Assembly (NCBI GenBank): GCA_963713955.1
Contig: OY970216.1
Location: 296,850-360,849 of the forward strand
Direction: 5' to 3'
From: an uncultured bacterium
GTDB taxonomy: Bacteria > Patescibacteriota > Minisyncoccia > UBA6257 > GWB1-50-10
Length of the DNA stretch: 64,000 bases
Shown here: positions 24,287 through 60,340 of the stretch, in pieces
Numbering within the stretch: position 1 is the first letter of the stretch
Layout: each line of letters begins with the position of its first letter
Notes under the pieces: generated by a model
What the model saw: only the letters and a program-made list of their open reading frames with translations
Databases searched by the model: none
What the model was told of the DNA's origin: nothing
Translations under genes and position numbers: made by a program

Positions 24287-24360
24287 AGACCAGGGAATAA
24301 AAAAGTGGGTAAGACTTGGGCTAGCGCCCCGGAGCGCACACTTTTTTGTTCCCTGGTCTC
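24287..24360 (+). repeat. family-2 structured element, copy 1
   Basis: Outer 12-bp stem gagaccagggaa/ttccctggtctc, inner aaaaaagtg/cactttttt, core gggtaagacttgggctagcgccccggagcgcacac; a TATAAT follows at 24376. Confidence 0.5.
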
Positions 24361-24388
24361 TTGCTCTCCCCTTTGTTATAATGGAAAC

Positions 24389-24616
24389 ATGATAAACATA
24401 GAGGGTAATTGGCTATTGGCGACGATAGTCATCATATGGGTCCTGCCGTGGAAAGGGGTTGCGTTGTGGAGAGCGGCGAAGTTGTCCCAGAAGTGGTGGT
24501 TTGTCGTGCTTCTCGTTCTGAACACGCTTGCCATTCTTGAGATTCTTTACATTTTCGTGTTTTCCAAATCTGCGATGAAAAAGCAGAATTTGGCTGAAAA
24601 ATCGATATCACAATAG
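24389..24616 (+). CDS. small 2-TM membrane protein
   Basis: ORF 24305-24616 trimmed to Met at 24389 (MINIEGNWLLATIVIIWVLPW...); the upstream part of the ORF is translation of the repeat element. Confidence 0.45.
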   Translation: MINIEGNWLLATIVIIWVLPWKGVALWRAAKLSQKWWFVVLLVLNTLAILEILYIFVFSKSAMKKQNLAEKSISQ

Positions 24617-24654
24617 GTCGGGGAGGGGTTAAAGCCGAGAAGGCTAACCGAAAA

Positions 24655-25128
24655 ATGAAATTGAAGGTAGGCAAAACTGCTCCGGATTTCGAGTTGCCGG
24701 ATCAGGAAGGAAAGAAACAAAAACTTTCCGGTTACCGCCGGAGGTGGGTTTTGATCTATTTCTATCCCAAGGACGACACGCCGGGATGCACCGCGGAGGC
24801 CTGCATGATCCGCGATTATTTCCCGGATTTCAGGAAATTGAAGGCAAAAGTTCTGGGCATAAGCGTCGATTCGGTGAAAAGTCACGAGAAGTTTGCGAAG
24901 AAATACCAGCTGCCGTTCACGCTCCTTTCGGATGAGAAAAAAGAGGTTGTCGGGAAATACGGCGTGTGGGGGGAGAAAAAATTCATGGGCCGGACGTATG
25001 AAGGAACACTCCGGACGTCGTTCTTGATTGACCCCACGGGGAAAATCGTGAAGATCTACGAGAATGTCAAGCCGGAAATCCACGCGAAAGAAGTCCTCAC
25101 CGATTTGAAAAAGCTGAAGAAGCGATGA
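24655..25128 (+). CDS. bcp: peroxiredoxin Bcp (thioredoxin-dependent thiol peroxidase)
   Basis: KAPDFELPDQEGKK...YFYPKDDTPGCTAEAC is a canonical Bcp/AhpC-TSA motif. Confidence 0.9.
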   Translation: MKLKVGKTAPDFELPDQEGKKQKLSGYRRRWVLIYFYPKDDTPGCTAEACMIRDYFPDFRKLKAKVLGISVDSVKSHEKFAKKYQLPFTLLSDEKKEVVGKYGVWGEKKFMGRTYEGTLRTSFLIDPTGKIVKIYENVKPEIHAKEVLTDLKKLKKR

Positions 25129-25397
25129 AAAAGACGTATGAAGTGAAAGTTTCCGGTCGAGTCCAGGGTGTCAACTTCAGATACTCGGCAATGAAGAAAG
25201 CGATCGGGCTTGGCATTGTTGGTTTCGTTCGCAATGAATCCGACGGAACGGTGCTTATCGAAGCGGAGGGCGAGGAAGAATCGCTTGAAAAGTTCCTGGC
25301 TTGGTGCCGCAAGGGTCCTTTCTTCGCCAAAGTCGATCGGCTGGACTTTTCCGAGATTCCGGCGCGCGATTACTCCGACTTCAAAATCGCACGGTGA
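25125..25397 (+). CDS. acyP: acylphosphatase
   Basis: VSGRVQGVNFRYSAMKKAIGLGIVGFVRNESDGTV is the acylphosphatase signature; 90 aa. Confidence 0.85.
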   Translation: MKKTYEVKVSGRVQGVNFRYSAMKKAIGLGIVGFVRNESDGTVLIEAEGEEESLEKFLAWCRKGPFFAKVDRLDFSEIPARDYSDFKIAR

Positions 25398-25406
25398 TTT
25401 CTTATT

Positions 25407-27047
25407 ATGTCTGAGTTTTACGAAAATCTGAAAAAAGCGGTGAAGGGGGACGTTTTGAATGATGAGGAAACACTCACGAAGTACGGCGAAGATTATTCCA
25501 TCTTCAAGGTAAAACCGCAGGCCGTCGTTTTCCCCAAGGACATTGAAGACGTTAAAAGTTTGGTGAAATTCGCGACTGAGAGGAGACGGAAAGGAGAGAA
25601 CATGTCCCTTACAGGTCGCTCGGCGGGAACCGATATGTCGGGCGGACCCTTGAATGAATCGGTTATCGTCGAGTTTGTGAAATATTTCAACCATGTGCGC
25701 GAAATAGGTTCTGACTATGCCATCGTTGAGCCGGGTGTCTACTTCAGGGATTTCGAAAAACAACTTCAGGGAAAAGGATTGCTCTACCCTCCCTATCCGG
25801 CCTCGAAAGATCTCTGCGCTTTGGGCGGGATGGTGAACAACAATTCGGGCGGGGAACTCACACTCCAGTACGGCAAGACGGAAAATTTCGTCGAGGAACT
25901 CACACTTGTCATGTCCGACGGCGAAGAGCATCGCTTGAGGCCGCTTGTCGGGGATGCATTGCAGAGCAAGTTGAGTGAGGAGAGTTTCGAGGGCGACCTC
26001 TACCGGAAGTTGTATCGGCTGATAGAAGATAATTACGATGTCATCATGGCTGCCAAGCCGAAAGTTTCCAAGAATTCAGCCGGCTACTACCTCTGGAATG
26101 TCTGGGATAAGAAAACATTCGACATCACGAAACTCGTCGTCGGTTCCCAGGGAACCCTCGGGCTTTTGACATCGGCGAAACTCCGTCTTGTGAAGGCTCC
26201 GAAATATACCCGGCTCATTGTCGTGTTTTCCAGAACGCTTGACCCGATTCCGGATTTGGTCGACGCGGTACTGCCCCTGAAACCCGACAGCATCGAGTCG
26301 TACGACGACAAGACGCTCGGGCTTGCCCTGAAATTCTTTCCGGCGCTTTTGAAACTCATGAAAGGAAGCGTTTTCAAGATGATCGTCGAATTCCTGCCGG
26401 AAGTGGGAATGATCATTCGGGGCGGTGTGCCGAAGATGATTCTCTTGGTCTCGGTGTCGGCGGACGATGCGTCTGCCTTGGAAGAGAAATCGCGGGCGGT
26501 CGTGACGGCGATCAAAAGATTCCCGGTTCAAATACGCTCCGTGAGAGACAAAGCGGAAGCGCAGGAGTACTGGACGATCAGACGCCAAAGTTTTAATTTG
26601 CTCCACAGCCACGTGAAAGGTATGTATGCGGCGCCCTTCATCGATGACATTATCGTGGATCCGAAGTACATGCCGGAGCTTCTGCCGCAGGTGAACGCCA
26701 TTTTGGACAGACACAAGGATAAGCTCGTCTACACCATCGCCGGACATCCGGGCAACGGCAATTTCCATATCATCCCCTTAGTGCACTTGAATGATCCGGA
26801 AACGCGGAAGATCATTCCGGAGGTGACGGAAGAGGTCTACAAGCTGGTTTTCAAGTACGGCGGCTCGATAACGGCCGAGCATAATGACGGCTTGATCCGG
26901 ACGCCGTATCTTAAGGAAATGTACGGCGAGAAGATTGTATCGCTCTTTGCCGAAGTGAAGAAGATTTTCGATCCGCTTGGCATTTTCAATCCTGGAAAGA
27001 AAGTTGGCGCGACGCTTGAATACGCGGCAGAACACATGAAAGAATAG
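25407..27047 (+). CDS. FAD-linked oxidase (GlcD/D-lactate dehydrogenase-like, PCMH-type FAD domain)
   Basis: FAD_binding_4-like N-terminal domain (SLTGRSAGTDMSGGPL) and FAD-oxidase C-terminal domain. Confidence 0.75.
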   Translation: MSEFYENLKKAVKGDVLNDEETLTKYGEDYSIFKVKPQAVVFPKDIEDVKSLVKFATERRRKGENMSLTGRSAGTDMSGGPLNESVIVEFVKYFNHVREIGSDYAIVEPGVYFRDFEKQLQGKGLLYPPYPASKDLCALGGMVNNNSGGELTLQYGKTENFVEELTLVMSDGEEHRLRPLVGDALQSKLSEESFEGDLYRKLYRLIEDNYDVIMAAKPKVSKNSAGYYLWNVWDKKTFDITKLVVGSQGTLGLLTSAKLRLVKAPKYTRLIVVFSRTLDPIPDLVDAVLPLKPDSIESYDDKTLGLALKFFPALLKLMKGSVFKMIVEFLPEVGMIIRGGVPKMILLVSVSADDASALEEKSRAVVTAIKRFPVQIRSVRDKAEAQEYWTIRRQSFNLLHSHVKGMYAAPFIDDIIVDPKYMPELLPQVNAILDRHKDKLVYTIAGHPGNGNFHIIPLVHLNDPETRKIIPEVTEEVYKLVFKYGGSITAEHNDGLIRTPYLKEMYGEKIVSLFAEVKKIFDPLGIFNPGKKVGATLEYAAEHMKE

Positions 27048-27055
27048 GAGAATGA

Positions 27056-27132
27056 GAAACCGGCGAAACAAAAAAGTGTGCGCTCCGAGGCCGCTAGGCC
27101 GGTCTTACCCATCTTTTTGTTTCGCCGGTTTC
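27056..27132 (-). repeat. family-2 structured element, copy 2 (inverted orientation)
   Basis: Outer 14-bp stem gaaaccggcgaaac/gtttcgccggtttc; core is the reverse complement of copy 1 with compensatory changes (ggcctagcggcc versus gggctagcgccc); begins 9 nt after the FAD-oxidase stop. Confidence 0.5.
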
Positions 27133-27157
27133 CTTTAGTGTATAAAGGAAGGAATAT

Positions 27158-28321
27158 GTGTTTTCTATGTTTAGTTTCCGCGTTTTGAAGAAAGATAAAA
27201 ATTCACTGGCTCGCACCGGCGTCATCGAAACTCCTCACGGCGTTGTCGAGACGCCGGCGTACGTCGTGGTCGGTACGAACGCGGCTGTCCGGACGCTCAC
27301 ACCCCACGATATCACGGAAACCAAGACGCAGATCGTCATTGTGAACACCTACCACATGTGGAAAGATTTGGGCGAGAAGTTGGAAACGTTCAGCGGGTTG
27401 CACGAGAAGATGGAATGGAGTGGGCCCTTGATGACCGACAGTGGGGGATTCCAGGTTTTCAGTTTCGGTTTTGGAAGGGAACACGGAATCGGAAAGGTAA
27501 GAGAAGTACCCAGTCGCTCTTCCGAAAATCTGACGAAGATAACCGAAGAAGGTGTTTATTTTTATGATGACAAAGAAAGATTTTTGAGTCCAGAAATCTC
27601 GATGCATATCCAGGAAAAGCTGGGAGCCGATATTGTATTCGCCTTTGACGAATGCACATCGCCTTTGAACAGTTATAAGTACGTGAAAGATAGTATGGAG
27701 AGAACACATCGGTGGGCTCTGCGATCGCTTGCGACAAAGATGAGAAGTGACCAAGCACTCTATGGCATCGTTCAGGGAGGAGAGTTCAGAGACTTGCGTG
27801 AAGAAAGTGCCCGGGTTATCGGCAGGATGGCGTTTGAAGGGCTCGCCATCGGCGGATCATTCGGCAAACTAGAAATGCATGATGTTCTCCGATGGACGGT
27901 GCCGCTTCTTCCCGATGGAAAGCCGCGACACCTTTTAGGAATTGGGAGGATCGAGGATGTCCTAAATGCCGTCGAGCTTGGTATTGATACATTTGATTGC
28001 GTGATCCCAACGAGGGAGGCGCGCCACGGATCGCTTTGGACGGAGGGTGGACGCTTCGATGTCAGAAAAGGAAAGTATGAGAATGATGAAAATAGAATTC
28101 AGGATGACTGCTCATGTCCCGTTTGTTCCAAAAACGTGACGAGGAGCGAGTTGCACAATCTTTTCAAATTGAGAGACCGGGAAGCCGGGAGATTGGCGAC
28201 GATCCATAACGTCTGGTTTTTCAACGATCTGATGCGGCGGATCAGAGAATCGATAAAAGAAGGAAAATTTGGAGAATTGAAGAAGGAATACCTTGAATTA
28301 GGGGTTAGGCATAGGGTATAG
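27158..28321 (+). CDS. tgt: queuine tRNA-ribosyltransferase
   Basis: LMTDSGGFQVFS active-site region, LAIGG motif, zinc site CSCPVC..H. Confidence 0.85.
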   Translation: MFSMFSFRVLKKDKNSLARTGVIETPHGVVETPAYVVVGTNAAVRTLTPHDITETKTQIVIVNTYHMWKDLGEKLETFSGLHEKMEWSGPLMTDSGGFQVFSFGFGREHGIGKVREVPSRSSENLTKITEEGVYFYDDKERFLSPEISMHIQEKLGADIVFAFDECTSPLNSYKYVKDSMERTHRWALRSLATKMRSDQALYGIVQGGEFRDLREESARVIGRMAFEGLAIGGSFGKLEMHDVLRWTVPLLPDGKPRHLLGIGRIEDVLNAVELGIDTFDCVIPTREARHGSLWTEGGRFDVRKGKYENDENRIQDDCSCPVCSKNVTRSELHNLFKLRDREAGRLATIHNVWFFNDLMRRIRESIKEGKFGELKKEYLELGVRHRV

Positions 28322-28384
28322 AAAACCTCCCGAGCACTGAAAGCGCTTGGGAGGTCGTGTTGTTTCTGTTATAATAAAGGAGAA

Positions 28385-29590
28385 ATGAATCCCCACTACC
28401 GAAGCAGCTTCACCCTGATCGAACTCCTGGTCGTGATTGCGATCCTTGCCGTCTTAGCGACTGCCGTCGTCTTGGTCTTGAACCCTTCCCAGCTTCTTGC
28501 TCAAGGAAGAGACTCCACGAGATTGTCTGATCTTGCAGCCCTCCAGAGCTCCCTTGCTCTCTTCCAGGCAGATCAATGGAATCAATCCTTAGGAACCGCC
28601 TCAACAACATATCTCTCAATCCCCGATTCATCACCAACCTGCCAGAATACCGGCATCGTTCCTCCTCCAGGATGGAGTTATCACTGTTCTCCCGCATCAA
28701 CCTATGCCAAGACCGATGGATCCGGCTGGATCCCCCTGAACTTCACCCTCATATCGTCAGGAAGCCCCCTCTCAAAGCTTCCCATCGATCCCGTGAACAC
28801 TACCTCCTCCGGTCTCTACTACACCTATACCCCCGGAGGATCGTATGCCATCTCCGGCATGATGGAATCGCAGAAGTACCTCCCAACTGCAGCCAATGAC
28901 CAGGGCTATGATCCGGGACGCTATGAAGCCGGCTCCGACATCTCCCTCATTGCGAAGAGTGAAGGCCTAGTCGGCTGGTGGCCCCTCGATGGGAGCGCGA
29001 ATGACATGTCTGGGAACGGGAATCAGGGGACGTGGTTTGGATCCCTTATCGGAGGTTCCCACTATACCCAGGGGAAGGTAGGATCTGCAGGGAATTTCAA
29101 TGGAAGTGACAGTTATATAGATCTCAACTACAACCCCGCGATTGGTATGGGAAGTTTCTCTATCAGTCTATGGTTTAATTCTCAGGATAACACTGGCGTC
29201 TTGGGTAATCTCCAATTTTTGCTGAATAAATACCATGCGAGTGGCAGCAGATTTGATATCTATTTGACTGCGGACGGGACCGGTTTGTGTTACTACGTCC
29301 AAGGTGACAACGGTTACTTTGGCGGTTGCCCAGCCGTAGTGGCAAGAGGTGCGTGGAACTATGCGGTATTGGTTAGGGATGCATTGAGCGGTAAAGTCAG
29401 TTTATATCTCAATGGTTCTTTGGTGAGCAGTCAAAGTGACACAAGCGGGAACATACCGGTGACCGGCGGCTTTGTCTATGGGAATCAAGACAATCAACGA
29501 TGGGCGAAGGGTTTCGGTGATGACCTTCGCATTTACAACCGTGCTCTCTCCGCCGCGGAGATTGCTGCCATCTATAACGCCCAGCGATAG
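28385..29590 (+). CDS. type IV pilin-like protein with C-terminal LamG/ConA-like domain, paralog 2
   Basis: MNPHYRSSFTLIELLVVIAILAVLATAVV; the first ~200 aa are about 80% identical to paralogs 1 and 3; C-terminal DDLRIYNRALSAAEIAAIYNAQR. Confidence 0.75.
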   Translation: MNPHYRSSFTLIELLVVIAILAVLATAVVLVLNPSQLLAQGRDSTRLSDLAALQSSLALFQADQWNQSLGTASTTYLSIPDSSPTCQNTGIVPPPGWSYHCSPASTYAKTDGSGWIPLNFTLISSGSPLSKLPIDPVNTTSSGLYYTYTPGGSYAISGMMESQKYLPTAANDQGYDPGRYEAGSDISLIAKSEGLVGWWPLDGSANDMSGNGNQGTWFGSLIGGSHYTQGKVGSAGNFNGSDSYIDLNYNPAIGMGSFSISLWFNSQDNTGVLGNLQFLLNKYHASGSRFDIYLTADGTGLCYYVQGDNGYFGGCPAVVARGAWNYAVLVRDALSGKVSLYLNGSLVSSQSDTSGNIPVTGGFVYGNQDNQRWAKGFGDDLRIYNRALSAAEIAAIYNAQR

Positions 29591-29643
29591 TATCAAGTAT
29601 CATGTAGCAAGTGGAAAGTATTAAATCCCATCTACTTGATACT
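29589..29643. terminator. conserved 3' hairpin shared by pilin paralogs 2 and 3 (11-bp perfect stem agtatcaagta / tacttgatact, about 33-nt loop)
   Basis: Sits between the convergent pilin-2 and recG stops; the same stem sequence follows pilin paralog 3 at 59027-59100. Confidence 0.45.
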
Positions 29644-29670
29644 TTCTACTTAGTACTTCCTACCTGTCGA

Positions 29671-33209: not shown

Positions 33210-33365
33210 AGTCTTACGCTATCATCTTATAACTTTTGATGGCCTTTTGAAAGCTATGGAGAGGAATGAAAACATCCTCTCACTAAAGCCTCCAGTCGTT
33301 AAAATCCAATTCGCTCCCTCGCTCCTCGCCACCCAGCTTCGATTCTTCCCCTTTATTCTACAAAG

Positions 33366-33515
33366 AAGCTCCCGTGCAGGTATTTTGAAGAAGCTTACGG
33401 AAGCGAAAAAGCTTGGTTCCCGAGCGGAAGCGAGGGATTTTTCGCTGAGAAGCAGCGGGCTCTTGCCGCTGGAGCAAGAGAACCGTGGTTCTGAGAAATA
33501 CCTGCACGGGAGCTT
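33366..33515 (+). repeat. 20-bp perfect inverted repeat (aagctcccgtgcaggtattt / aaatacctgcacgggagctt) enclosing a 110-nt hairpin-rich segment; candidate ncRNA or MITE
   Basis: Read from the sequence in a 350-nt intergenic gap between tRNA-Arg and cca; nested hairpins agcga-gggattttt-tcgct and cagcgg-gctcttg-ccgctg. Confidence 0.3.
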
Positions 33516-33558
33516 TACTACATTTCATTTTAACTCTGCCTATTCTAAAATTATCGTA

Positions 33559-35040
33559 ATGACGTTGAAGATACCGAAAGAAGTGAAAGAGGCAGTGAAG
33601 AAACTGGAAACCGCGGGGTACGAAGCGTACCTCGTCGGCGGGTGCGTACGGGACGTGGTACTCGGGAAGATTCCCAAGGATTGGGACATCGCGACGAACG
33701 CCCGGCCTGAGGAGATGCAGAAAATTTTCCCGGAGAGCGTCTACGAAAACAATTTCGGAACCGTGGGCGTGAAAACCGATTCGGATGATGAAACTTTGAA
33801 AATACTCGAAGTGACAACGTTCAGATCGGAGAGCGTCTATGAAGATCGGAGACATCCCAAAGATGTGAAATTTGTCTCGACGATCGAGGAAGATTTGTCA
33901 CGCCGGGATTTCACTGTGAACGCCATGGCACTCTCGTTCGGTTCGAAATTCGAAATTCGAAATTCGAAATTTTCGCTGATCGATCCCTTTGATGGCCGGA
34001 GAGATTTGAAGAAAAAAATCATACGGGCAGTCGGCGATCCACACAAGCGCTTCGAAGAGGACGCTCTGCGTCTCATGCGGGTCACGCGGTTCGCGGTTGA
34101 ACTCGATTTCGCCATAGAGCCCCGGACGCTCGAAGCGGTCAAGAAAAATGCCGGCCTCATCGAAGAGATAGCAAAAGAAAGGATCCGCGACGAGCTCGTG
34201 AAGGTCGTCATGTCCGACCGGGCGGCCGAGGGCATCATTCTTCTCGAGGACACGGGACTCTTGAGATACATTATTCCGGAACTTCGGGAGGGCATCGGTT
34301 GCGAACAGAACAAGCATCATATCTATACTGTCTTTGACCACAACGTGCGGGCGCTGAATTACACCGCCGAAAAGAAATATTCGCTCATCGTCCGCCTGGC
34401 CGCTCTGCTCCATGACGTCGGGAAGCCGCGCGTCAAAAGGGGGGACGGGCCTGACTCCACGTTTTACAATCATGAGGTTATCGGCGGCAGGATGACTTTG
34501 AAGATACTGGATCGGTTGCGTTTTTCCAAGGAAGTAGTGGAAAAAGTCGGCCATCTGGTGAGGTTTCACCTCTTCTACTACAACGTCGGCGAAGTGACGG
34601 AGGCTGGCGTCCGGAGGTTTTTGGCGCGGGTCGGTCCCGAAAACGTGGGTGATTTGCTGAAAGTGAGGGAAGCGGATCGGATCGGTTCCGGCGTTCCCAA
34701 AGCCTTCCCTTATAAACTTCGTCACCTCCTCTTTATGATCGAGAAGGTGAAGCGCGATCCTATTTCTCCCAAGATGCTCGAAATGAACGGCACGGACGTC
34801 ATGGGAATTTTGGACATCGGGCCGGGCCCGAAAGTCGGCTGGATTCTTTCGATACTTCTCGAGGAGGTTCTGGACGATCCCGCGAAGAACAAGCGCGGAC
34901 ACTTGGAGGAAAGAGTGAAATGTCTCGGCGCGCTTTCGGACAAGGAACTAAAGATCATGGCGGAAAAGGCGAAGGAAACCAAAGAGGAATTCGAGTCCGG
35001 AGTTGAAAGCGAAATGAAGAAGAAGTACTATGTAAAATAA
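33559..35040 (+). CDS. cca: CCA-adding tRNA nucleotidyltransferase with HD domain
   Basis: Pol-beta NTase head GGCVRDVVLGKIPKDWDIAT ... RRDFTVNAMAL; HD motif LLHDVGKP; start trimmed to ATG 33559 (MTLKIPKEV). Confidence 0.85.
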   Translation: MTLKIPKEVKEAVKKLETAGYEAYLVGGCVRDVVLGKIPKDWDIATNARPEEMQKIFPESVYENNFGTVGVKTDSDDETLKILEVTTFRSESVYEDRRHPKDVKFVSTIEEDLSRRDFTVNAMALSFGSKFEIRNSKFSLIDPFDGRRDLKKKIIRAVGDPHKRFEEDALRLMRVTRFAVELDFAIEPRTLEAVKKNAGLIEEIAKERIRDELVKVVMSDRAAEGIILLEDTGLLRYIIPELREGIGCEQNKHHIYTVFDHNVRALNYTAEKKYSLIVRLAALLHDVGKPRVKRGDGPDSTFYNHEVIGGRMTLKILDRLRFSKEVVEKVGHLVRFHLFYYNVGEVTEAGVRRFLARVGPENVGDLLKVREADRIGSGVPKAFPYKLRHLLFMIEKVKRDPISPKMLEMNGTDVMGILDIGPGPKVGWILSILLEEVLDDPAKNKRGHLEERVKCLGALSDKELKIMAEKAKETKEEFESGVESEMKKKYYVK

Positions 35041-35729: not shown

Positions 35730-35785
35730 TATCCCCAGATTTATGGCTTCCCGCTCTCATTATTGAGAGCGGGAAGCCTTATTAG
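35730..35785. repeat. family-3 palindromic hairpin, copy 1 (ggcttcccgctctc-attatt-gagagcgggaagcc); probable bidirectional terminator
   Basis: 14-bp perfect stem; lies between tRNA-Pro (+) and the HhH-GPD glycosylase stop (-); near-identical 55-nt copy at 40525-40572. Confidence 0.5.
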
Positions 35786-40496: not shown

Positions 40497-40524
40497 TGAG
40501 TTTATTATATCCCCGGCGGACTTA

Positions 40525-40572
40525 TCCCCAAAATCTATGGCTTCCCGCTCTCGTTATTGAGAGCGGGAAGCC
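40525..40572. repeat. family-3 palindromic hairpin, copy 2 (ggcttcccgctctc-gttatt-gagagcgggaagcc)
   Basis: In the divergent promoter region between the helicase-nuclease (-) and the 40633 gene (+); a partial third arm gagcgggaggcc follows. Confidence 0.5.
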
Positions 40573-40632
40573 ATATTTAGAGCGGGAGGCCAAATATTTG
40601 GTGGATAACTTCGTTCGTGTTACTATGGGAAT

Positions 40633-52035: not shown

Positions 52036-52078
52036 CCTAAGTAAGCAACAGTAAGCAACTTGTTGCGAAGCCTGAACG

Positions 52079-52224: not shown

Positions 52225-52551
52225 TTACTCCACTAATCTTATTTCCCGGTCGAATACGCTCGCTATCTTATGGAGCGTCGCGATGGAGAAATTGTGGGTG
52301 CCGGATTCGATCCTCGCGATGACCGATCTCGGCATCTCGGCCTTCTCCGCGACTTCTCCCTGGGTCATGTGCCGCTTCTCCCGGAGAGTCCTGATCTCAT
52401 GTGCCAGCTTGATCCGGCTCATTTCCTCGGTAAAGGCCTTCCTAAATTCAGGATTCTTCTTCCTCTCCATGATTACTGCTGAGAGAGGAGTGAATTTAAC
52501 AACTTCTTTATTTTTTCTAAGTCCAAAATCTTTCATCTTTTCTATTTTCAT
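52225..52551 (-). CDS. higA: HigA-like antitoxin (XRE-family HTH)
   Basis: HTH TQGEVAEKAEMPRSVIARIESG; directly downstream of the HigB-like toxin; followed by a terminator hairpin. Confidence 0.7.
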   Translation of the reverse strand: MKIEKMKDFGLRKNKEVVKFTPLSAVIMERKKNPEFRKAFTEEMSRIKLAHEIRTLREKRHMTQGEVAEKAEMPRSVIARIESGTHNFSIATLHKIASVFDREIRLVE

Positions 52552-52571
52552 TGTAATCTTAATTTTCTTAT

Positions 52572-52892
52572 TTACTTCTTGATGTTTGTTACCATCCGAT
52601 ATACCTCTTCCGCCCGTTCTATGACCCTTTTGGGCGTCTTCCGGCTTTTCTTTCGGAATGCATCCACGGCATAGATGATGCCCTTCTGTTGGAAATACAC
52701 TATCCGGTACTGGCCGACCGTGAGTTCCATAATCTTGCCCTTGAGGGGCTTGATGTCGAGTTCCTCAGTCAGGCCATTCTCAAGAGACTCGAGGTGGGCG
52801 AGTATTTTCGCAACATCTTTAGTGGAAAGACCTTCCAGGTATTCGGTGACGTCACCGAGCTGCAGTAGCTTCATTAGGTTGTCTAGGTGCAA
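52572..52892 (-). CDS. higB: HigB/RelE-like toxin (phage Gp49/DUF891 family)
   Basis: DIKPLKGKIMELTVGQYRIVYFQQKGIIYAVDAFRKKSRKTPKRVIE matches the Gp49-like HigB core; toxin-first HigBA order. Confidence 0.65.
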   Translation of the reverse strand: MHLDNLMKLLQLGDVTEYLEGLSTKDVAKILAHLESLENGLTEELDIKPLKGKIMELTVGQYRIVYFQQKGIIYAVDAFRKKSRKTPKRVIERAEEVYRMVTNIKK

Positions 52893-52915
52893 GAATCGAC
52901 CTTTGATGCTAGTGT

Positions 52916-53849: not shown

Positions 53850-54095
53850 ATGCAAAGACTAGTTTCGGTTACAGAGAGTGTATGCGAATCCATGAAGGTA
53901 CCCTTGTGGGTAATGGAAGCTGCCGTTGGGAAGCAAGTGCCGGCTGAGGAAGGACCGAACGAGGAATTGTGGCTCAAGAAAATCGATTTGATCTCGGTTC
54001 TTGAAAAGAAAAGTGAGCGTCAGGCGGCAGACTGGATCCGCAGGAATGTAAACCAAGATACCATTGTAGTGCCTCAAGTATTACTTCAGGCGTAG
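53850..54095 (+). CDS. hypothetical small protein
   Basis: 81 aa. Confidence 0.3.
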   Translation: MQRLVSVTESVCESMKVPLWVMEAAVGKQVPAEEGPNEELWLKKIDLISVLEKKSERQAADWIRRNVNQDTIVVPQVLLQA

Positions 54096-54193
54096 GCGTA
54101 CACAGAGCAGGCCCAGGCAGTTGTAGCCGGACCTCCCTTATTTTATACCCCCGATCTCATGAGGTGGATATTTTTGCCGAAGTGGGCAACTTG

Positions 54194-54265
54194 TTGCGGG
54201 GGCAGGATTCGAACCTGCGACCTCCGGGTTATGGGCCCGACGAGCGACCGCTGCTCCTCCCCGCG
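54194..54265 (-). tRNA. initiator tRNA-fMet (anticodon CAT)
   Basis: cgcgggg 5' end with a C1-A72 mismatch; three G-C pairs closing the anticodon stem (tcggg-cccataa-cccgg); nearly colinear with my recollection of E. coli tRNA-fMet. Confidence 0.8.
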
Positions 54266-54333
54266 GTTCATAAAACAAATGAATTATACTTGTAAAGAGG
54301 GTATAAGTCAATTTATAATTGAATAAATCATTT

Positions 54334-54407
54334 GGCTGGGTAGCTCAGTCGGTTAGAGCGTGGCCCTCATAAAGCCGAGGTCGTGGGTTCGAATCCCACC
54401 CCAGCCA
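54334..54407 (+). tRNA. tRNA-Met or tRNA-Ile2 (anticodon CAT)
   Basis: Acceptor ggctggg/cccagcc, D-arm gctc-agtcggtta-gagc, anticodon loop cuCAUaa, T-arm gtggg-ttcgaat-cccac; 74 nt. Confidence 0.75.
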
Positions 54408-54429
54408 CAAAAATGTATATCATAAAAAT

Positions 54430-55410: not shown

Positions 55411-55415
55411 AAGCA

Positions 55416-55754
55416 ATGGAAACGCCCAACGGAAAAATTGAAGATGAGAGGTTTCATGAACTCCAAAGATTCAGAGAAGAGATTGAGGCTATCAAGAAAA
55501 GCACTCCCTCCCTCTCCGAAGTCAACGTTGATGAATTGACGGATGAGGACATGGAACTCTGGAAACTTAAAGAAAGCGGAAATGCAACCAGGGAGGCTAT
55601 CGATGCACATAGAAAATCGATCTCTAATGAGAAAAGGATTTTACGGGAAGAAATTCCTAGGAGTCGCAGTTTATTCTTTCAATATGTCGCCAATGAAGTG
55701 AGCCAAAGGATAACAAGAGAGGAGTTGGCCAAAAGGAGAAGAAATAAAAAATAA
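55416..55754 (+). CDS. hypothetical charged/coiled-coil protein inserted between pheS and pheT
   Basis: 112 aa; K/E/R-rich; no family. Confidence 0.4.
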   Translation: METPNGKIEDERFHELQRFREEIEAIKKSTPSLSEVNVDELTDEDMELWKLKESGNATREAIDAHRKSISNEKRILREEIPRSRSLFFQYVANEVSQRITREELAKRRRNKK

Positions 55755-55763
55755 AGTGGAACG

Positions 55764-57680
55764 ATGAAATTTTCGTACCCATTGATAAAAAAATTGGTCC
55801 CGGGGGTGAAAAGCAAAGGTCAGATCATTGATACCCTGAATTTCCATTCCTACGAGACCGAGGACGCGCCGGGCGACACGTTCGAGGTCAAACTGCCGGC
55901 GAACCGATTTTCCGATTCAGCGTCCCACATCGGCGTCGCGCGGGAAGTTGCTACAGCCCTGAACCTCGGTTTCAAAGAAAGTGCGGGGGAGAAAGTAAGA
56001 CCGGGGAAAACAAAACCGGATTTTTCCGTCACCGTTGCCGAGAAAAAACTCTGTCCGCGATACGTCGCCTGGAGGTTTAATAATATTAAGGTCAAAGATT
56101 CACCGGCCTGGCTGACGCAGATCTTGAAGGATTGCGGACTCCGCCCGATAAACAACGTCGTCGACATTATGAATTACGCGATGCTTTTGACGGGCCAGCC
56201 GCTCCACGCTTTCGATTTCGATAAGCTCGAGGGAGGCGAGGTGAAAATCAGAATGGCGAAGGGCGAAGCGATGACCACCATCGACGGACGTGCTTTGAAG
56301 CTCGGGAAAAATGTTTTGGTCATAGCAGACAAGAATCGGCCGATCGCCCTCGCGGGCATCAAAGGCGGCAAGGATACGGAGGTTGACGAGAAAACCAAGA
56401 GAATTCTCGTCGAAGCGGCAAGCTTCGAACCTTCCTTGATATACCGGACGTCCAAGGAATTGGGGCTTTCAACGGACGCATCCCAGCGATTTTCACATAA
56501 CCTGAGCTTGGAGTTGCCGCTCTCGGGAATCGCCAAAGCCGCTGAGATGCTCGTGGATCTTGCCGGGGCGCGGCCCGGTTCCAGATTCGATTCTTATCTG
56601 AAACAAATCCCGAAGAGAATACTCAAATTTGACATAGAGAAGTTCAACAAATTCATCGGTACGGATTTGAGCGGCAAGGAAGCAACCGCGTACTTGAAGC
56701 GGCTCGGCTTCAAAAGCTTGCGCGGAGACGAGTGGGAAGTGCCACCGTTCCGGACGGACGTCGAGAATCACGAAGATCTTTTCGAAGAAGTAGCCCGTAT
56801 GTACGGGTACGGCAGGATTCCGGCGAAGGCGCCGGAAGTGGCACTCTCGCCGTCGGGCACCGAAGATCGCGTTATCCTGAAGGATAAAATAAGACATCTC
56901 CTCCAGGGGTTCGGATTCGATGAAGTTTATACGTATTCCATGATTTCGGTGCGGGATGCCGGGGGGAAGGGAAGGAAAACGGATAATTTGTATGAAGTGT
57001 CGAATCCGATAAGCGAAGAATTCCAGTATCTGAGGCCGACGCTTGAAGTCAACCTGGCAAAGGTCGTGGCGGACAATTTCAGGTTTTCCGACACGGCGAA
57101 GATTTTTGAAATTGGGAACACATTCAGAAAGATAGGCAAGGAAACTGGCGAGCAAATGTCCTTCGGGGTCGTTTTTGCCGATAAGAAGGAAGAAAGATTT
57201 TTCGAGCTCAAAGGGATCCTCGACGAGCTTTTCAAGAAGGTCGGTCTCACTGATTATAACTTCGAGGAAGGCGGGAATTTTTTGAAACTTGAATCGAACG
57301 GAGAAATTTTTGGCTTTCTAAAAAATGCCAAGGTGGAAGGAGGGGAAATGTCCTTCGCCGAGATTAACTTTGATAAGCTGGCTGAGCTGGTAGAAGGCGA
57401 ATTTGAATATGAGCCGCTGCCTAAGTATCCTTCGGTGGTGCGGGACATCTCCATCCGCGTGCCCGGCGGCGCGAAGATAGGCGACATCATTCAGGAAATA
57501 CAGGACTCGAACCTGAAACTTATAGAGGATGTTGATCTGGTGGATGAGTATAAATCGAACATGACACTCAGGATCGTATTCCAATCTGAAGAAAGAACGT
57601 TGACGGCGGAAGAAGTGAATAGGGAGATGACTAAGATCCAAAAAACGCTGGAGACGAAGTTTGGGGCCACGATACGGTGA
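55764..57680 (+). CDS. pheT: phenylalanyl-tRNA synthetase beta subunit (short form)
   Basis: B3/B4 and B5 domains plus C-terminal anticodon-binding-like domain; 638 aa, lacks the long N-terminal tRNA-binding domain of typical bacterial PheT. Confidence 0.85.
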   Translation: MKFSYPLIKKLVPGVKSKGQIIDTLNFHSYETEDAPGDTFEVKLPANRFSDSASHIGVAREVATALNLGFKESAGEKVRPGKTKPDFSVTVAEKKLCPRYVAWRFNNIKVKDSPAWLTQILKDCGLRPINNVVDIMNYAMLLTGQPLHAFDFDKLEGGEVKIRMAKGEAMTTIDGRALKLGKNVLVIADKNRPIALAGIKGGKDTEVDEKTKRILVEAASFEPSLIYRTSKELGLSTDASQRFSHNLSLELPLSGIAKAAEMLVDLAGARPGSRFDSYLKQIPKRILKFDIEKFNKFIGTDLSGKEATAYLKRLGFKSLRGDEWEVPPFRTDVENHEDLFEEVARMYGYGRIPAKAPEVALSPSGTEDRVILKDKIRHLLQGFGFDEVYTYSMISVRDAGGKGRKTDNLYEVSNPISEEFQYLRPTLEVNLAKVVADNFRFSDTAKIFEIGNTFRKIGKETGEQMSFGVVFADKKEERFFELKGILDELFKKVGLTDYNFEEGGNFLKLESNGEIFGFLKNAKVEGGEMSFAEINFDKLAELVEGEFEYEPLPKYPSVVRDISIRVPGGAKIGDIIQEIQDSNLKLIEDVDLVDEYKSNMTLRIVFQSEERTLTAEEVNREMTKIQKTLETKFGATIR

Positions 57681-57701
57681 AGATGATGTTATAATGAGGG
57701 G

Positions 57702-59027
57702 ATGATGCCCCCTCATCTCCAATCTTCCTTCACCCTCATCGAACTCCTGGTCGTGACCCCGATACGAAAGGCGTTCCACGCCTTCGTACGGGGCAAGTCG
57801 CCATCCAATCCCAAGGCTTCTTTCACGTTAATTGAACTTCTCGTCGTCATTGCTATTCTCGCAGTCCTCGCGACCGCCGTCGTCCTCGTCCTGAACCCCG
57901 CCCAGCTCCTTGCCCAAGGAAGAGACTCCACAAGATTGTCTGATCTTGCAGCCTTGAACAGTGCCCTCTCCTTGTTCCAAGTTGATGCCTATACCCAGTC
58001 CCTGGGGACTCCGAATACAGTCTATATATCTGTTCCTGACAATGCTTCCTCTACCTGTGGATCTCTTGGTCTTCCTTCCTTGCCTTCCCCCTGGGCCTAT
58101 CACTGTGTTCCCGCCTCTTCTTCCACGAAGGTAGACGGAACAGGCTGGATTCCTGTGAATCTCACCCTTATATCGTCAGGATCCCCTTTATCCAAGCTCC
58201 CGATTGATCCCGTGAATACCACAAGCACTGGACTCTACTATACCTACGTATCAGGAGGCTCCTATGAGATTACTTCAGCTATGGAGTCTCAGAAGTACCG
58301 ATTAGGAGGTTCTACTGATGCAGTCTCTACCGATGGAGGCCCGTATCCTGATTTGAGGGAAATAGGCTCCAATCTCTCTCTCCTCCCCATAGACTATGGA
58401 GATACGAGTCTTGTGGGATATTGGCCCTTCAATGAAGGGACGGGCCTAACTGCCTATGATGCGAGTGGACATGGGAATAACGGGGCGTTAAGCGCTTCTC
58501 CTCCGGCTTGGATCACAGGGAAATTAGGTGGGGCCTTGAGCTTTAACGGGAGTAATAACTATGTGAGTTACGCTTCAAGTAGTGGCAATGTCTACGGGCC
58601 GATTACGGTCGCTGCTTGGGTGTACGTCAATCCAAACAGCACTTATCAATTTGTAATCCAACGGGGAACAAGCGGAGCCAACGTTAACTGTCAGTATTCT
58701 TTGTATGTTGTTACTACCAATGTTTTGAGATTCAGTATCGATGCCGGAGCCAATGAGTACCCCGCAAATTCTTCGGTGCTGACCGCAGGATGGTACTATG
58801 TTGTTGGCACGTGGACTGGTTCTGGTCCGGCCGCCATCTATATCAATGGTGTGAACGCCGGCAACAGCGCCTCTGTTTCTGGGACTCAAAATAGCATCAG
58901 TAATTTTATTATGGGCAATAGTGGAGGGGGCGGTTACCCGTTTAATGGTTATCTTGACGATGTCCGCGTCTACAATAGAGCTTTATCCGCCGCCGAGATT
59001 CAGGCGATCTACAACGCCCAAAAATAA
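57702..59027 (+). CDS. type IV pilin-like protein with C-terminal LamG/ConA-like domain, paralog 3 (duplicated prepilin leader segment)
   Basis: SSFTLIELLVV-TPIRKAFHAFVRGKSPSNPKA-SFTLIELLVVIAILAV; C-terminal DDVRVYNRALSAAEIQAIYNAQK. Confidence 0.7.
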   Translation: MMPPHLQSSFTLIELLVVTPIRKAFHAFVRGKSPSNPKASFTLIELLVVIAILAVLATAVVLVLNPAQLLAQGRDSTRLSDLAALNSALSLFQVDAYTQSLGTPNTVYISVPDNASSTCGSLGLPSLPSPWAYHCVPASSSTKVDGTGWIPVNLTLISSGSPLSKLPIDPVNTTSTGLYYTYVSGGSYEITSAMESQKYRLGGSTDAVSTDGGPYPDLREIGSNLSLLPIDYGDTSLVGYWPFNEGTGLTAYDASGHGNNGALSASPPAWITGKLGGALSFNGSNNYVSYASSSGNVYGPITVAAWVYVNPNSTYQFVIQRGTSGANVNCQYSLYVVTTNVLRFSIDAGANEYPANSSVLTAGWYYVVGTWTGSGPAAIYINGVNAGNSASVSGTQNSISNFIMGNSGGGGYPFNGYLDDVRVYNRALSAAEIQAIYNAQK

Positions 59028-59100
59028 GTATCAAGTATAAAGTAGAATGTATAAAGTATAATTTGCGCTTTGAATTTTTGGTTTTTCTCTACTTGATACT
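59027..59100 (+). terminator. conserved 3' hairpin of pilin paralog 3 (agtatcaagtat ... tacttgatact)
   Basis: Same 11-bp stem as at 29589-29643, with a longer loop. Confidence 0.45.
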
Positions 59101-59130
59101 TTCTACTTAATATTAGCTACTCGCTGTATA

Positions 59131-59985
59131 ATGAGATTAATGAGAAAATTCGCCTTCATTTCCATTCTGATTTGCGGAATTTCATTCGCTTACCTCTCTT
59201 ATGCCGCTTCTCCTGTCGTCACCGTTTCCAATACTTACCCAATTCAAGGTGACACGGTTCTCGTGAACGTTTCCGGGGTCGCGAGCGCGCCCAAGACGGC
59301 AACTCTCGGGACTGAGACGGCGAATTTTTTCCCGTACGGCGGGAAATACGCCGCCGTAATCGGCCTCAAGGTTACGGCCGCGGCCGGCTGGCAGAGAATC
59401 ACGCTCAAATTTTCCGACGGTTCGGCCGTCACGAAATGGATCGACGTTCTGAAGAAAAAAATCACCGTGGAAAATCTCGCTGTTCCGCCGGAGCTCGGCG
59501 TGACGCCGACGGAACTCGTCCAAGAGATCACGGACGAGAACGCGGCGCTGAACGACATCGTCAATACGGTAACCCCGCAAACTTACATAACCAAAGGTTT
59601 TGGTTTGCCCCTGGCGAACAACACGTATATCACTGATCGTTACGGCATTCTCCGCAGGACGGGCGATCAGGAAATCTGGCATCTGGGAACTGATTTCGCC
59701 GCCGCTTCGGGGAGTATCGTTGCGGCCGTGAATTCCGGCGTCGTCAGATTCGCGACATCGACTGTGTCCTACGGGAACACGGTTATCGTGGATCACGGGG
59801 AGGGAATTTATTCCATGTATCTTCATTTGTCGACGATAATCGCCCGGGCGGGCGATACGGTGAAAAAGGGGCAGGTAATAGGTCTTGTCGGGAACACCGG
59901 GTTCTCGACCGGCGAGCACCTGCACTTGTCGATCAAGGTAAACGGCATTTCCGTAGATCCCCTGCGATTCGTGCGGGTGTTTTAG
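59131..59985 (+). CDS. M23-family (LytM-like) metallopeptidase
   Basis: HLGTDFAA...GNTVIVDHGEGIYSMYLHLS...GNTGFSTGEHLHLSI are the M23 HxxxD/HxH motifs. Confidence 0.85.
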   Translation: MRLMRKFAFISILICGISFAYLSYAASPVVTVSNTYPIQGDTVLVNVSGVASAPKTATLGTETANFFPYGGKYAAVIGLKVTAAAGWQRITLKFSDGSAVTKWIDVLKKKITVENLAVPPELGVTPTELVQEITDENAALNDIVNTVTPQTYITKGFGLPLANNTYITDRYGILRRTGDQEIWHLGTDFAAASGSIVAAVNSGVVRFATSTVSYGNTVIVDHGEGIYSMYLHLSTIIARAGDTVKKGQVIGLVGNTGFSTGEHLHLSIKVNGISVDPLRFVRVF

Positions 59986-60026
59986 GAGAAGGCAGCCACT
60001 CCCTCATCGGCGAGTTTTTCTTTCGA

Positions 60027-60155
60027 ATAAATCCTCCTCGCTCCTCGTCGGAATAAAGTCGCAAAATATCGAACTCAACCTCCCCGCCTCATCGGCGGGT
60101 TCGGGATTCAAACAAGCGATATTTTGCTCATTCCTTCCTCGTAGCTCGGGGATTT
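60027..60155 (+). repeat. family-1 structured intergenic element, copy 3
   Basis: Stem gcaaaatatcg(60061-71)/cgatattttgc(60117-27); central hairpin cccgcc-tcatc-ggcggg; starts 42 nt after the M23 stop. Confidence 0.55.
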
Positions 60156-60277
60156 ATGCATCTCAAGAAAAAAGCCTTCTTCGGGAGTGGCTGCCTCTCC
60201 TGTGCCGTTTTAGTGAGGTTTTCGATTCTCCTTGACTGAATCCTATCGGAGAGATAAGAAAATAATCGAACGAGTCA

Positions 60278-60340
60278 GATATACCTCGCGAAGGCTAAGA
60301 CTTGGGCGTCGCCCCGGAGACTGCCTGAGCGAGGTATGTC
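60278..60340 (+). repeat. family-2 structured element, copy 3 (short form)
   Basis: Outer stem gatatacctcgc/gcgaggtatgtc; core ggctaagacttgggcgtcgccccggaga. Confidence 0.4.

What the first reader, a model, noticed from the sequence alone, without database searches (positions are those of the whole stretch)
24287..60340. Family-2: conserved GGGC-UAGC-GCCC-type hairpin core in long hairpins whose outer stems differ but all pair perfectly
Copy 1 (24287-24360, +) has outer stem gagaccagggaa/ttccctggtctc. Copy 2 (27056-27132, inverted) has gaaaccggcgaaac/gtttcgccggtttc. Copy 3 (60278-60340) has gatatacctcgc/gcgaggtatgtc. All enclose the core GGGTAAGAC(T/C)(T/G)GGC..GCC(C/T)CGGAG, and copies 1 and 2 share an inner aaaaaagtg/cactttttt helix. 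The innermost stem shows compensatory substitutions (gggc-tagc-gccc, ggcc-tagc-ggcc, gggcg-t-cgccc). Three unrelated outer stems that each pair perfectly around a conserved core is hard to explain by chance. It resembles either a structured RNA family or hairpin-type mobile elements (REP/MITE-like, or an IS200/IS605-style DNA hairpin substrate) that have recruited different flanks. Copy 2 begins 9 nt after the FAD-oxidase stop. Copy 1 sits just before a TATAAT box. So terminator or attenuator roles are also possible.
Basis: seen in the sequence. Interest (0 to 1): 0.7.

Follow-up and report, generated by a model that had tools for sequence, protein, structure and literature searches.

The report
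Mobile palindromic repeat of CPR bacteria
The three hairpins are copies of an ~85-base palindromic repeat that has spread through genomes of ultra-small Patescibacteria (CPR) bacteria, landing just after stop codons and even in frame inside essential genes, much like the 'selfish' palindromic elements of Rickettsia; it is not a conserved regulatory RNA of the neighbouring genes.

Summary
The window holds three 70-85 nt hairpins with a near-identical asymmetric centre (GGGUAAGAC-stem/loop-CGGAGCGCAC) and different, well-paired arms. About 50 more copies were found in Patescibacteria MAGs and metagenomes. All have the same centre and co-varying arms (24 of 27 arm pairs show double changes). No Rfam family, no paper and no viral contig matches.

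It behaves as a non-autonomous mobile palindromic repeat:
- Near-identical full-length copies sit at different loci of one community.
- Window copies 2 and 3 are absent from the syntenic spacers of one relative (L052), and the model finds no copy in either relative.
- Five copies lie in frame inside UvrC, ArgRS, TruB, TsaD and a Pif1-type helicase.
- TsaD orthologues show an empty site, a filled site, and both orientations at one position.
- There is no target-site duplication, no conserved termini and no nearby transposase.

Two things remain unexplained. The arms pair better on the core-forward strand (G·U 72 vs A·C 16), whichever way the host gene runs. Intergenic copies start 0-12 nt after a stop codon, mostly antisense to that gene (19 vs 3).

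Closest analogues are RPE and REP/REPIN. The conserved centre with free arms is the reverse of their design. The mobilising mechanism is unknown.

The parts
24283..24363 (+). Copy 1, whole palindromic element (81 nt), type A. It lies in the FtsX-DUF5652 spacer, in the same direction as both neighbouring genes.
   Evidence: I2; 91.6 bits. MFE -50.9 kcal/mol, z -8.2.
24307..24339 (+). Copy 1, conserved asymmetric centre GGGTAAGACTTGGGCTAGCGCCCCGGAGCGCAC. It comprises a purine-rich internal loop (UAAGA / AGC) and a 4-bp apical stem with a UAGC loop.
27056..27132 (-). Copy 2, whole element, with the core on the minus strand. It starts 8 nt after the FAD-oxidase stop codon and ends 34 nt before the tgt start codon. 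It is antisense to both genes.
   Evidence: I4; 68.9 bits.
27078..27110 (-). Copy 2, conserved centre GGGTAAGACCGGCCTAGCGGCCTCGGAGCGCAC.
60276..60342 (+). Copy 3, whole element, a variant subtype. It has tandem GA/GA below the core, GGAGAC instead of GGAGCG, and a GUC loop. It lies 22-27 nt beyond the stop of the minus-strand 340-aa gene (its orthologues in L052 and L053 carry Pfam MJ0711_N; the window protein itself has no Pfam hit) and is antisense to it.
   Evidence: I11; 38.1 bits. The same subtype occurs inside uvrC at L016:1131-1216.
60293..60325 (+). Copy 3, conserved centre GGCTAAGACTTGGGCGTCGCCCCGGAGACTGCC.

Best explanation
Family-2 is a non-autonomous, selfish palindromic DNA repeat of Patescibacteria (CPR), about 81-88 bp long. 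It has a conserved asymmetric centre of about 33 nt flanked by 20-28 bp inverted-repeat arms whose sequence is free as long as the arms pair.

Shown here:
- New copies arise at unrelated places, both in intergenic spacers and in frame within coding regions.
- Copies persist at a site for long periods.
- Copies occur in both orientations at one site, either by in-place inversion or by repeated insertion.
- Arms diverge through paired changes.

Inferred:
- The centre is the recognition module for a trans-acting enzyme encoded elsewhere in the genome.
- The element is handled as a folded single strand, the core-forward strand. This could be ssDNA in the manner of HUH/Y1 enzymes, or less likely RNA. 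It would explain why G·T(U) pairs are tolerated on that strand only.
- Arm complementarity is kept partly by this requirement and partly by templated repair within the palindrome.

For the host, the copies are mostly neutral baggage. They add a strong hairpin to 3' ends and 24-30 extra residues to loops of proteins. Some selection acts on orientation next to stop codons.
For: **Dispersed multi-copy family.**
- 3 copies in the window; 4 loci from the species-representative genome scan (3 Patescibacteria MAGs, one with a second copy, plus a Myxococcota hit without arms); 39 metagenome loci.
- The covariance model finds 50 copies in 360 kb of fetched loci.
- Full-length near-identical copies sit at different loci of one sample (L006, L016, L032, with arms GAGCCCCGGCACGATGGAAAAAGTG).

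**Presence/absence at orthologous sites.**
- The relative L052 (TGT 74% identical, conserved gene order) has a 52-nt FADox-tgt spacer and a 20-nt M23-MJ0711_N spacer where the window has copies 2 and 3. L053 (68%) has 133- and 88-nt spacers with other sequence.
- The model finds nothing in either relative.

**In-frame coding insertions.**
- UvrC, ArgRS, TruB and a Pif1-like helicase, and TsaD.
- TsaD orthologues of 78-87% identity range from 340 to 429 aa.
- The empty site is 72-75 nt and the filled site 144-153 nt.

**Both orientations at one site.** The TsaD site carries intact cores both ways: VRLGLAPRSA versus ALRGASPSLT.

**Strand asymmetry intrinsic to the element.**
- The arms alone fold better on the core-forward strand in 37 of 45 copies. 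G·U is 72 against 16, and the mean ddG is -5 kcal/mol.
- In TsaD the forward strand is the better folder both when it is sense and when it is antisense to the gene.

**No gene association and no fixed signals.**
- No recurrent neighbouring gene family.
- No fixed promoter or U-tract.
- No Rfam family and no paper containing the core sequence.

**Patchy distribution.** Only 3 Patescibacteria species representatives, out of 185,579 species genomes scanned, match the strict core.
Against: - No mobilising enzyme was identified. No transposase, reverse transcriptase or integrase domain appears in any major ORF of the window or recurrently near copies.
- No target-site duplication in 42 of 49 copies, and no conserved termini. 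The transposition chemistry is therefore pure inference.
- The centre is much better conserved than the arms, even between copies in one genome. Simple decay of dead copies does not predict that. It requires master-copy dynamics or a host function.
- Intergenic copies show a strong orientation rule: 19 against 3 are antisense to the gene whose stop codon they abut. That suggests selection by the host, or an insertion bias I cannot explain.
- Most copies were found with a pattern that forced part of the core, so core invariance is overstated. Hits found only by the model show UAGGAC, UUAGAC and UUGGAG variants.
Confidence: 0.62

Rival explanations
1. A host-beneficial structured RNA element at gene 3' ends. 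The long hairpin with a protein-binding apical module would act on transcripts. It could be an orientation-specific terminator or insulator against antisense read-in, an mRNA 3'-end stabiliser, or an RNase processing site. Under this reading the coding copies are accidents.
For: - The core is nearly invariant across distant lineages, and there is strong covariation.
- G·U pairs are tolerated on one strand only, the classic RNA signature.
- Copies sit 0-12 nt after stop codons and follow an orientation rule of 19 to 3.
- The purine-rich internal loop (UAAGA/AGC, tandem GA in the B and copy-3 subtypes) looks like a protein- or tertiary-contact motif.
Against: - The better-folding strand is usually antisense to the adjacent gene, so it would not be in that gene's mRNA. 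No promoter lies at a fixed distance to make it independently.
- No U-tract.
- The element is absent from the same spacers in one relative (L052), and the model finds no copy in either relative.
- The asymmetry follows the core even when the element lies antisense inside a coding gene.
- Arm pairing persists in TsaD copies whose core has decayed (L047, L050). That points to DNA-level maintenance.
- Taxonomic distribution is patchy.
Confidence: 0.2
2. An RNA-mediated (SINE-like) retroelement. The forward-strand hairpin RNA would be recognised through its apical module by a reverse transcriptase, which are abundant in CPR genomes, then copied and integrated.
For: Forward-strand G·U asymmetry, no target-site duplication or terminal inverted-repeat consensus, and a conserved apical module.
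Against: - No reverse transcriptase in the window or near copies.
- Most intergenic copies lie antisense to the only obvious transcription, so they would rarely be templates.
- No poly-A or primer-like tail.
- No precedent in bacteria.
Confidence: 0.07
3. attC-like single-strand recombination sites of an integron-type system.
For: The position is right after the stop codon, it is the strand antisense to the ORF that folds, and the sequence is variable while the structure is conserved.
Against: - The neighbouring genes are syntenic housekeeping genes, not cassettes.
- Copies 1 and 2 point in opposite directions.
- There is no integrase in the window.
- The conserved part is central, whereas attC conserves its outer R/L boxes.
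- Copies occur inside coding genes.
Confidence: 0.03

Closest known systems
Rickettsia palindromic elements (RPE)
   Same: Short dispersed palindromic repeats with no transposase of their own. They occur both in spacers and in frame inside unrelated housekeeping genes, where they are translated as a peptide insert (PMC10969869, read). The mobilisation mechanism is unknown in both cases.
   Different: RPEs are about 100-150 bp and each family is conserved along its whole length. They are restricted to Rickettsia and its relatives. Here only the ~33-nt centre is conserved, the arms are free, the length is 81-88 bp, and the host is Patescibacteria. There is no sequence similarity.
REP / REPIN elements mobilised by RAYT (HUH Y1) transposases
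   Same: Extragenic palindromic hairpins, often within ~15 nt of stop codons. They have no target-site duplication and are handled as a strand-specific ssDNA hairpin. This rests on general knowledge of the family.
   Different: REP stems and the 5' GTAG motif are the conserved part, and the loop or spacer varies, which is the reverse of this element. No RAYT gene flanked by copies was seen. REPs are not normally found in frame inside genes.
MITEs that form long RNA hairpins (Correia/NEMIS, ERIC, BOX/RUP)
   Same: Non-autonomous, about 100 bp, with inverted-repeat arms. They are co-transcribed with neighbouring genes and can alter mRNA 3' ends.
   Different: MITEs have conserved terminal inverted repeats recognised by a DDE transposase, and they have target-site duplications. 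Neither feature is present here.
Integron attC sites
   Same: A palindrome with conserved structure and variable sequence, placed directly after a stop codon, in which the strand antisense to the ORF is the one that folds.
   Different: attC conserves outer R''/R' boxes and extrahelical bases. It occurs in cassette arrays next to intI. None of this applies here.
Intrinsic (rho-independent) terminators
   Same: A stable hairpin downstream of genes. Type-A copies carry an internal A-run / U-run around the core.
   Different: There is no U-tract after the full hairpin. The centre is conserved at the sequence level, copies occur inside ORFs, and the element is absent from the same spacers in L052 (the model finds no copy in either relative).

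Membership tests
Any Rfam 15 RNA family | Covariance-model score at or above the family's gathering threshold | tested here: not met
   Searches return only tRNAs at gathering threshold. At the permissive E-value setting the only hits are generic miRNA-precursor hairpin matches, far below threshold.
Intrinsic terminator | GC-rich hairpin followed directly by a U-tract | tested here: not met
   One search shows no T enrichment after the hairpin on either strand (the flanks are A-rich on the forward strand). The scan does not call copies 1 or 2.
MITE (DDE-mobilised) | Conserved terminal inverted repeats shared by all copies | tested here: not met
   arm termini differ between copies. Type A shows only a loose GAGACC/GAAACC tendency.
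MITE (DDE-mobilised) | Target-site duplication of fixed length | tested here: not met
   42 of 49 copies have no flanking direct repeat of 3 nt or more. This is no better than the shifted control.
REP/REPIN-RAYT | Cognate RAYT (Y1_Tnp) gene in the genome, typically flanked by REPs | tested here: inconclusive
   No Y1_Tnp hit in any major window ORF or among the ORFs between clustered copies. Whole genomes could not be searched.
REP/REPIN-RAYT | Conserved stem sequence with a 5' GTAG-type motif and a variable loop | tested here: not met
   the stems vary and the centre is conserved.
IS200/IS605 ends / PATE | Distinct left- and right-end subterminal hairpins, insertion 3' of a fixed tetra- or pentanucleotide, and TnpA/TnpB in the genome | tested here: inconclusive
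   There is a single hairpin per element. No fixed flanking tetranucleotide is apparent in the listings, though this was not scored formally. No TnpA or TnpB was found in the window, and the rest of the genome was not searchable.
RPE-like selfish palindromic element (functional class, not sequence family) | Dispersed palindromic repeat found in frame inside unrelated housekeeping genes as well as in spacers | tested here: met
   Searches show copies in UvrC, ArgRS, TruB, a Pif1-like helicase and TsaD. Searches show the intergenic copies.
RPE-like selfish palindromic element (functional class, not sequence family) | Insertion polymorphism at orthologous sites | tested here: met
   TsaD empty versus filled sites. 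Sites of window copies 2 and 3 are empty in the relative L052, and the model finds no copy in L052 or L053.
Integron attC | Cassette array with intI, and conserved outer R/L boxes | tested here: not met
   Syntenic housekeeping context, no integrase in the window, and the outer ends are not conserved.
Kink-turn RNA motif (in the core) | C-stem, 3-nt bulge, then tandem sheared G·A pairs with the partner strand continuing directly into the C-stem | tested here: not met
   Reading the sequence, GGG-UAA-GA fits the bulged strand. The opposite strand, however, has GCG between the GA partner and the CCC, so the geometry does not fit.

The most novel reading that the evidence does not exclude
The conserved asymmetric centre is the handle of a so-far undescribed mobilisation system in CPR bacteria. 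That system would recognise a folded single strand by its apical module alone, leaving the arms free. It would insert without target duplication, tolerate or promote in-place flipping, and be frequent enough to remodel loops of essential proteins across the phylum. A variant reading is that the forward-strand hairpin has been domesticated as an orientation-specific 3'-end or antisense-insulator signal read by a CPR-specific protein.
Probability: 0.25. Interest if true: 0.8.

Novelty: new variant of a known kind. Interest (0 to 1): 0.6.

Why it matters
**Annotation and comparative genomics of CPR.** Length differences of 25-90 residues between orthologous CPR proteins can come from palindromic insertions of this kind rather than from domain gain. 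TsaD ranges from 340 to 429 aa here. TGT ranges from 376 to 471 aa, but its inserts do not carry this family's peptide motifs and were not characterised. Such insertions also create false ORF calls and false signals of RNA structure.

**Mobile elements.** It extends the RPE phenomenon, in-frame selfish DNA inside essential genes, to a second and very different group of reduced-genome bacteria. The architecture is inverted relative to REP, RPE and MITE elements: a conserved centre with free arms. That implies a different recognition logic.

**RNA discovery.** It is a warning case. There is perfect covariation and even one-strand G·U tolerance in an element that is most likely selfish DNA.

**Practical use.** The covariance model built here could be used to census the element and to find its enzyme by phylogenetic profiling.

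Tried and rejected
- **Known RNA family.** Rfam at gathering and at permissive thresholds finds nothing.
- **TIGR/Tas stem-loop arrays**, raised by a literature hit. Those have variable loops and occur as tandem arrays, so they do not match.
- **Own promoter at a fixed distance, or a U-tract.** The position-specific composition of both flanks is flat, and the consensus scan is negative.
- **Core inserted into pre-existing host hairpins, or arms copied from the target.** Rejected for TsaD. The insert is about the size of the whole hairpin and the empty site has no palindrome. Only the outermost ~5-8 nt overlap host codons.
- **Replication-strand orientation.** GC skew around the copies is inconclusive: 24 negative against 15 positive, p = 0.07. 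Copies 1 and 2 also point in opposite directions within 3 kb.
- **Mutational bias as the cause of the G·U asymmetry.** Coding-strand or leading-strand C-to-T bias predicts the opposite sign. This is reasoning, not a computation.
- **Viral origin.** A loose pattern gave 80 or more chance hits, none confirmed by the model. The strict pattern gave 0 hits.
- **Recurrent neighbouring protein or transposase.** None found.
- **Proteome-wide census of the translated core.** This failed. The query was too short, and then no indexed words matched.
- **AlphaFold model of TsaD with the insert.** The overall model is poor (mean pLDDT 61). The insert at residues 124-150 scores below 50, but so do other parts of the protein, so the result is uninformative.
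- **Kink-turn and UAA/GAN readings of the core.** They do not fit by inspection.
Full report
**1. What is in the window**

Each is a long hairpin.
- Copy 1 spans 24283-24363, with 25-nt arms that are 96% complementary.
- Copy 2 spans 27056-27132, with 19-nt perfect arms and its core on the minus strand.
- Copy 3 spans 60276-60342, with 20-nt arms that are fully paired once G·U is allowed.

All three enclose TAAGAC-N13/14-CGGAG. That pattern occurs 3 times in the window against 0.21 expected by chance. The folds are 6-8 standard deviations more stable than dinucleotide shuffles.

The window comes from a Patescibacteria (CPR) genome. It has type-IV-pilin-like genes (N_methyl plus LamG), a DUF5652 gene and six scattered tRNA genes. 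Its TGT protein's nearest named relatives are annotated Patescibacteria or Minisyncoccia.

Rfam 15 has no family for the hairpin at any threshold. No paper in the library contains the core sequence.

**2. The family outside the window**

A strict core pattern was scanned against 185,579 species-representative genomes. It hit three Patescibacteria MAGs, one of them a Saccharibacteria, plus one Myxococcota site that has no arms and is probably chance.

A pattern scan of JGI metagenomes gave 39 loci. Every real hit has the same centre between arms that differ from copy to copy yet pair.

- An alignment of 45 distinct copies shows 82% of cells paired, against 59% in shuffles and at most 55% with slid partners.
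- 24 of 27 arm pairs have changes on both sides.
- RNAalifold independently predicts the same hairpin.
- A covariance model built from the alignment finds 50 copies in the 360 kb of fetched loci, including four that the text pattern had missed, and only the three in the window.

One caveat applies. Most copies were ascertained with a pattern that fixed GGGTAAGAC and CGGAGCGC, so the invariance of the core is overstated. Hits found only by the model show UAGGAC, UUAGAC and UUGGAG, and one has an extra hairpin nested in the apical loop.

Three subtypes recur across genomes.
- Type A has A-run-GUG...CAC-U-run around the core (window copies 1 and 2).
- Type B has tandem GA/GA below a GGG/CCC helix.
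- The copy-3 type has GGAGAC and a GUC loop. It is shared with L016:1131-1216.

**3. Evidence that it is a mobile repeat and not a gene-specific RNA**

(a) Near-identical full-length copies, arms included, lie at different loci of one community (L006, L016, L032).

(b) Two relatives keep the gene order MFP-ABC-FtsX-DUF5652-...-FADox-TGT-M23-MJ0711_N-SecD (L052 with TGT 74% identical, L053 with 68%). Neither has the element.
- The FADox-tgt spacer is 52 nt in L052, against 119 nt with copy 2 in the window.
- The M23-MJ0711_N spacer is 20 nt in L052, against 385 nt with copy 3 in the window.
- The model finds nothing in either locus.

(c) Five copies lie in frame inside housekeeping genes.
- UvrC, between the UVR motif and the RNase-H-like endonuclease domain.
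- Arginyl-tRNA synthetase, TruB and a Pif1-like helicase.
- TsaD.
- They are translated as ..GKT(W/R)ASAPER.. or ..VRLGLAPRSA.., depending on the reading frame.

(d) TsaD gives a natural experiment.
- Orthologues that are 78-87% identical range from 340 to 429 aa.
- The differences are concentrated between YANWL and FPLLALVVSGGHT, and at a second site near the C-terminus.
- At the DNA level, the empty site is 72-75 nt and the filled sites 144-153 nt. The insert is therefore essentially the whole hairpin.
- The same site carries the element forward (L041), reversed with an intact core (L174-L176, peptide ALRGASPSLT), or reversed with a decayed core but arms that still pair (L047, L050).

(e) There is no consistent target-site duplication (42 of 49 copies have none). 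There are no conserved termini and no recurrent neighbouring gene family. No transposase, RT or integrase domain appears in any major ORF of the window. There are no copies in IMG/VR.

This is the behaviour described for Rickettsia palindromic elements (PMC10969869).

**4. Two observations that the simple selfish-DNA picture does not fully explain**

First, the pairing is strand-asymmetric.
- Using the arms alone, the core-forward strand is the more stable in 37 of 45 copies. The mean difference is 5 kcal/mol (Wilcoxon p about 8e-7).
- G·U pairs outnumber A·C mismatches, which would be G·U on the other strand, by 72 to 16. An energy-free alignment gives 53 to 9.
- Many copies are related, so these are not independent counts, but the direction is consistent.
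- In TsaD the forward strand is the better folder both when it is the sense strand (L041) and when it is antisense (L174-L176). The asymmetry therefore belongs to the element and not to the host mRNA.
- Known mutational biases (C-to-T on the coding or leading strand) predict the opposite sign. This is an inference.
- I read the asymmetry as the footprint of a single-stranded intermediate of one defined strand. ssDNA is more likely than RNA, because most intergenic copies are antisense to the only obvious transcription and no promoter sits at a fixed distance.

Second, intergenic copies obey a placement rule.
- The hairpin starts 0-12 nt after the stop codon of a gene on the strand opposite to core-forward.
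- Within 60 nt, 25 copies are antisense and 10 are sense. For ORFs of at least 200 codons the count is 19 against 3.
- Window copies 2 and 3 follow the rule; copy 1 does not.
- If orientation flips in place, as the TsaD site may show, this bias needs selection. One possibility is selection against the tighter forward hairpin, or its exposed GGAG loop, right behind a terminating ribosome. Another is selection in favour of blocking antisense read-in. A third is an insertion preference.
- I could not discriminate between these explanations. GC skew was uninformative.

**5. What the covariation does and does not mean**

The arms keep pairing even in coding copies whose core has decayed. An RNA hairpin there would be a burden on translation rather than a benefit.

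Orthologous copies L035 and L036 differ by G-C to A-U changes that pass through G·U.

Long DNA palindromes are known to homogenise their arms by intrastrand template switching. This is established knowledge and was not tested here. It is not by itself evidence for a functional RNA.

**6. Mechanism: what is shown and what is inferred**

Shown:
- A dispersed family.
- Insertion polymorphism.
- In-frame coding copies.
- Both orientations at one site.
- One-strand G·U tolerance.
- No target-site duplication, terminal inverted-repeat consensus or U-tract.

Inferred:
- A trans-acting enzyme encoded elsewhere recognises the apical module. That module is the UAAGA/AGC purine-rich internal loop above a G·A or tandem-GA step, plus a short GC stem whose sequence and loop may vary.
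- The enzyme acts on the folded forward strand.
- The arms only need to pair.
- Lineages of copies that lose the centre stop propagating and decay.

Which enzyme class is responsible remains open. Candidates are HUH/Y1 like RAYT or IS200/IS605 TnpA, a structure-specific nuclease, or an RT.

**7. Comparison with known kinds**

By behaviour, the element is RPE-like. By placement and the lack of a target-site duplication, it is REP/REPIN-like.

It fails the defining features of DDE-type MITEs, intrinsic terminators, attC sites and every Rfam family (see the membership table).

Its architecture, a conserved centre with free arms, is the reverse of REP, RPE and MITE designs. I found no description of it in the literature searched.

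I therefore rate it a new variant of a known kind, of moderate to good interest. It matters for CPR genome annotation and protein evolution, and it serves as a cautionary example for covariation-based RNA discovery.

Noticed in passing
Two ~130-nt copies are 92% identical, with an internal inverted repeat (GCAAAATATCG ... CGATATTTTGC). One copy lies in the same convergent-gene spacer as copy 3. There is no Rfam match.
   Followed up: partly
window 28385-59130, compared with L052 and L053: In two relatives, tgt is followed directly by the M23 peptidase, MJ0711_N and secD genes. In the window about 30.8 kb of housekeeping genes lie between them (recG, CCA-adding enzyme, addA-like helicase-nuclease, gatA, pheS/pheT, six tRNA genes, and a HigB/HigA-like pair at 52225-52892). 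This block is bounded by two paralogous pilin-like genes (28385-29590 and 57702-59027) that have similar 3' hairpins (29586-29646 and 59026-59101). It is a rearrangement or a duplication-mediated insertion.
   Followed up: partly
window 35742-35781 and 40517-40613: Another palindrome family (TATGGCTTCCCGCTCTC / GAGAGCGGGAAGCCATA). It is present once as a simple hairpin and once as a nested or duplicated palindrome.
   Followed up: no
window 24377-24391: A TATAAT box ends 6 nt before the ATG of the DUF5652 gene, and there is no Shine-Dalgarno sequence. This suggests a leaderless transcript.
   Followed up: no
TsaD orthologues (alignment A2, columns ~390-450) and TGT homologues: A second hot spot in TsaD, between ANKALRE and FFP, holds other Arg/Ala/Pro-rich inserts. 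One of them is a diverged Family-2 copy (L047:1457-1540, 31.7 bits). TGT homologues vary from 376 to 471 aa but lack Family-2 peptide motifs. CPR proteins therefore seem to host several families of such inserts.
   Followed up: partly
L031:2248-2346: A Family-2 copy with an extra perfect hairpin (UCCGCCAGCUGGCGGA) nested in its apical region. The tip of the element tolerates insertions.
   Followed up: no
L020:6354-6440 and L016:1131-1216: These are the only two copies with a clean 6-nt flanking direct repeat (TAGAAC and GAGCGA). They could be chance, or a target-site duplication visible only in young copies.
   Followed up: partly
window 24104-24133: A separate perfect 14-bp hairpin (CCCCGCACAAAAAC/GTTTTTGTGCGGGG) lies 21 nt after the ftsX stop codon. 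It is a more conventional terminator candidate than copy 1, which lies 150 nt further on.
   Followed up: no
window 33247-35040: The CCA-adding / poly(A) polymerase-family ORF is 597 aa long. Its first Pfam domain starts at residue 127, and the ORF begins at a TTG codon. This could be an N-terminal extension or a mis-set start.
   Followed up: no
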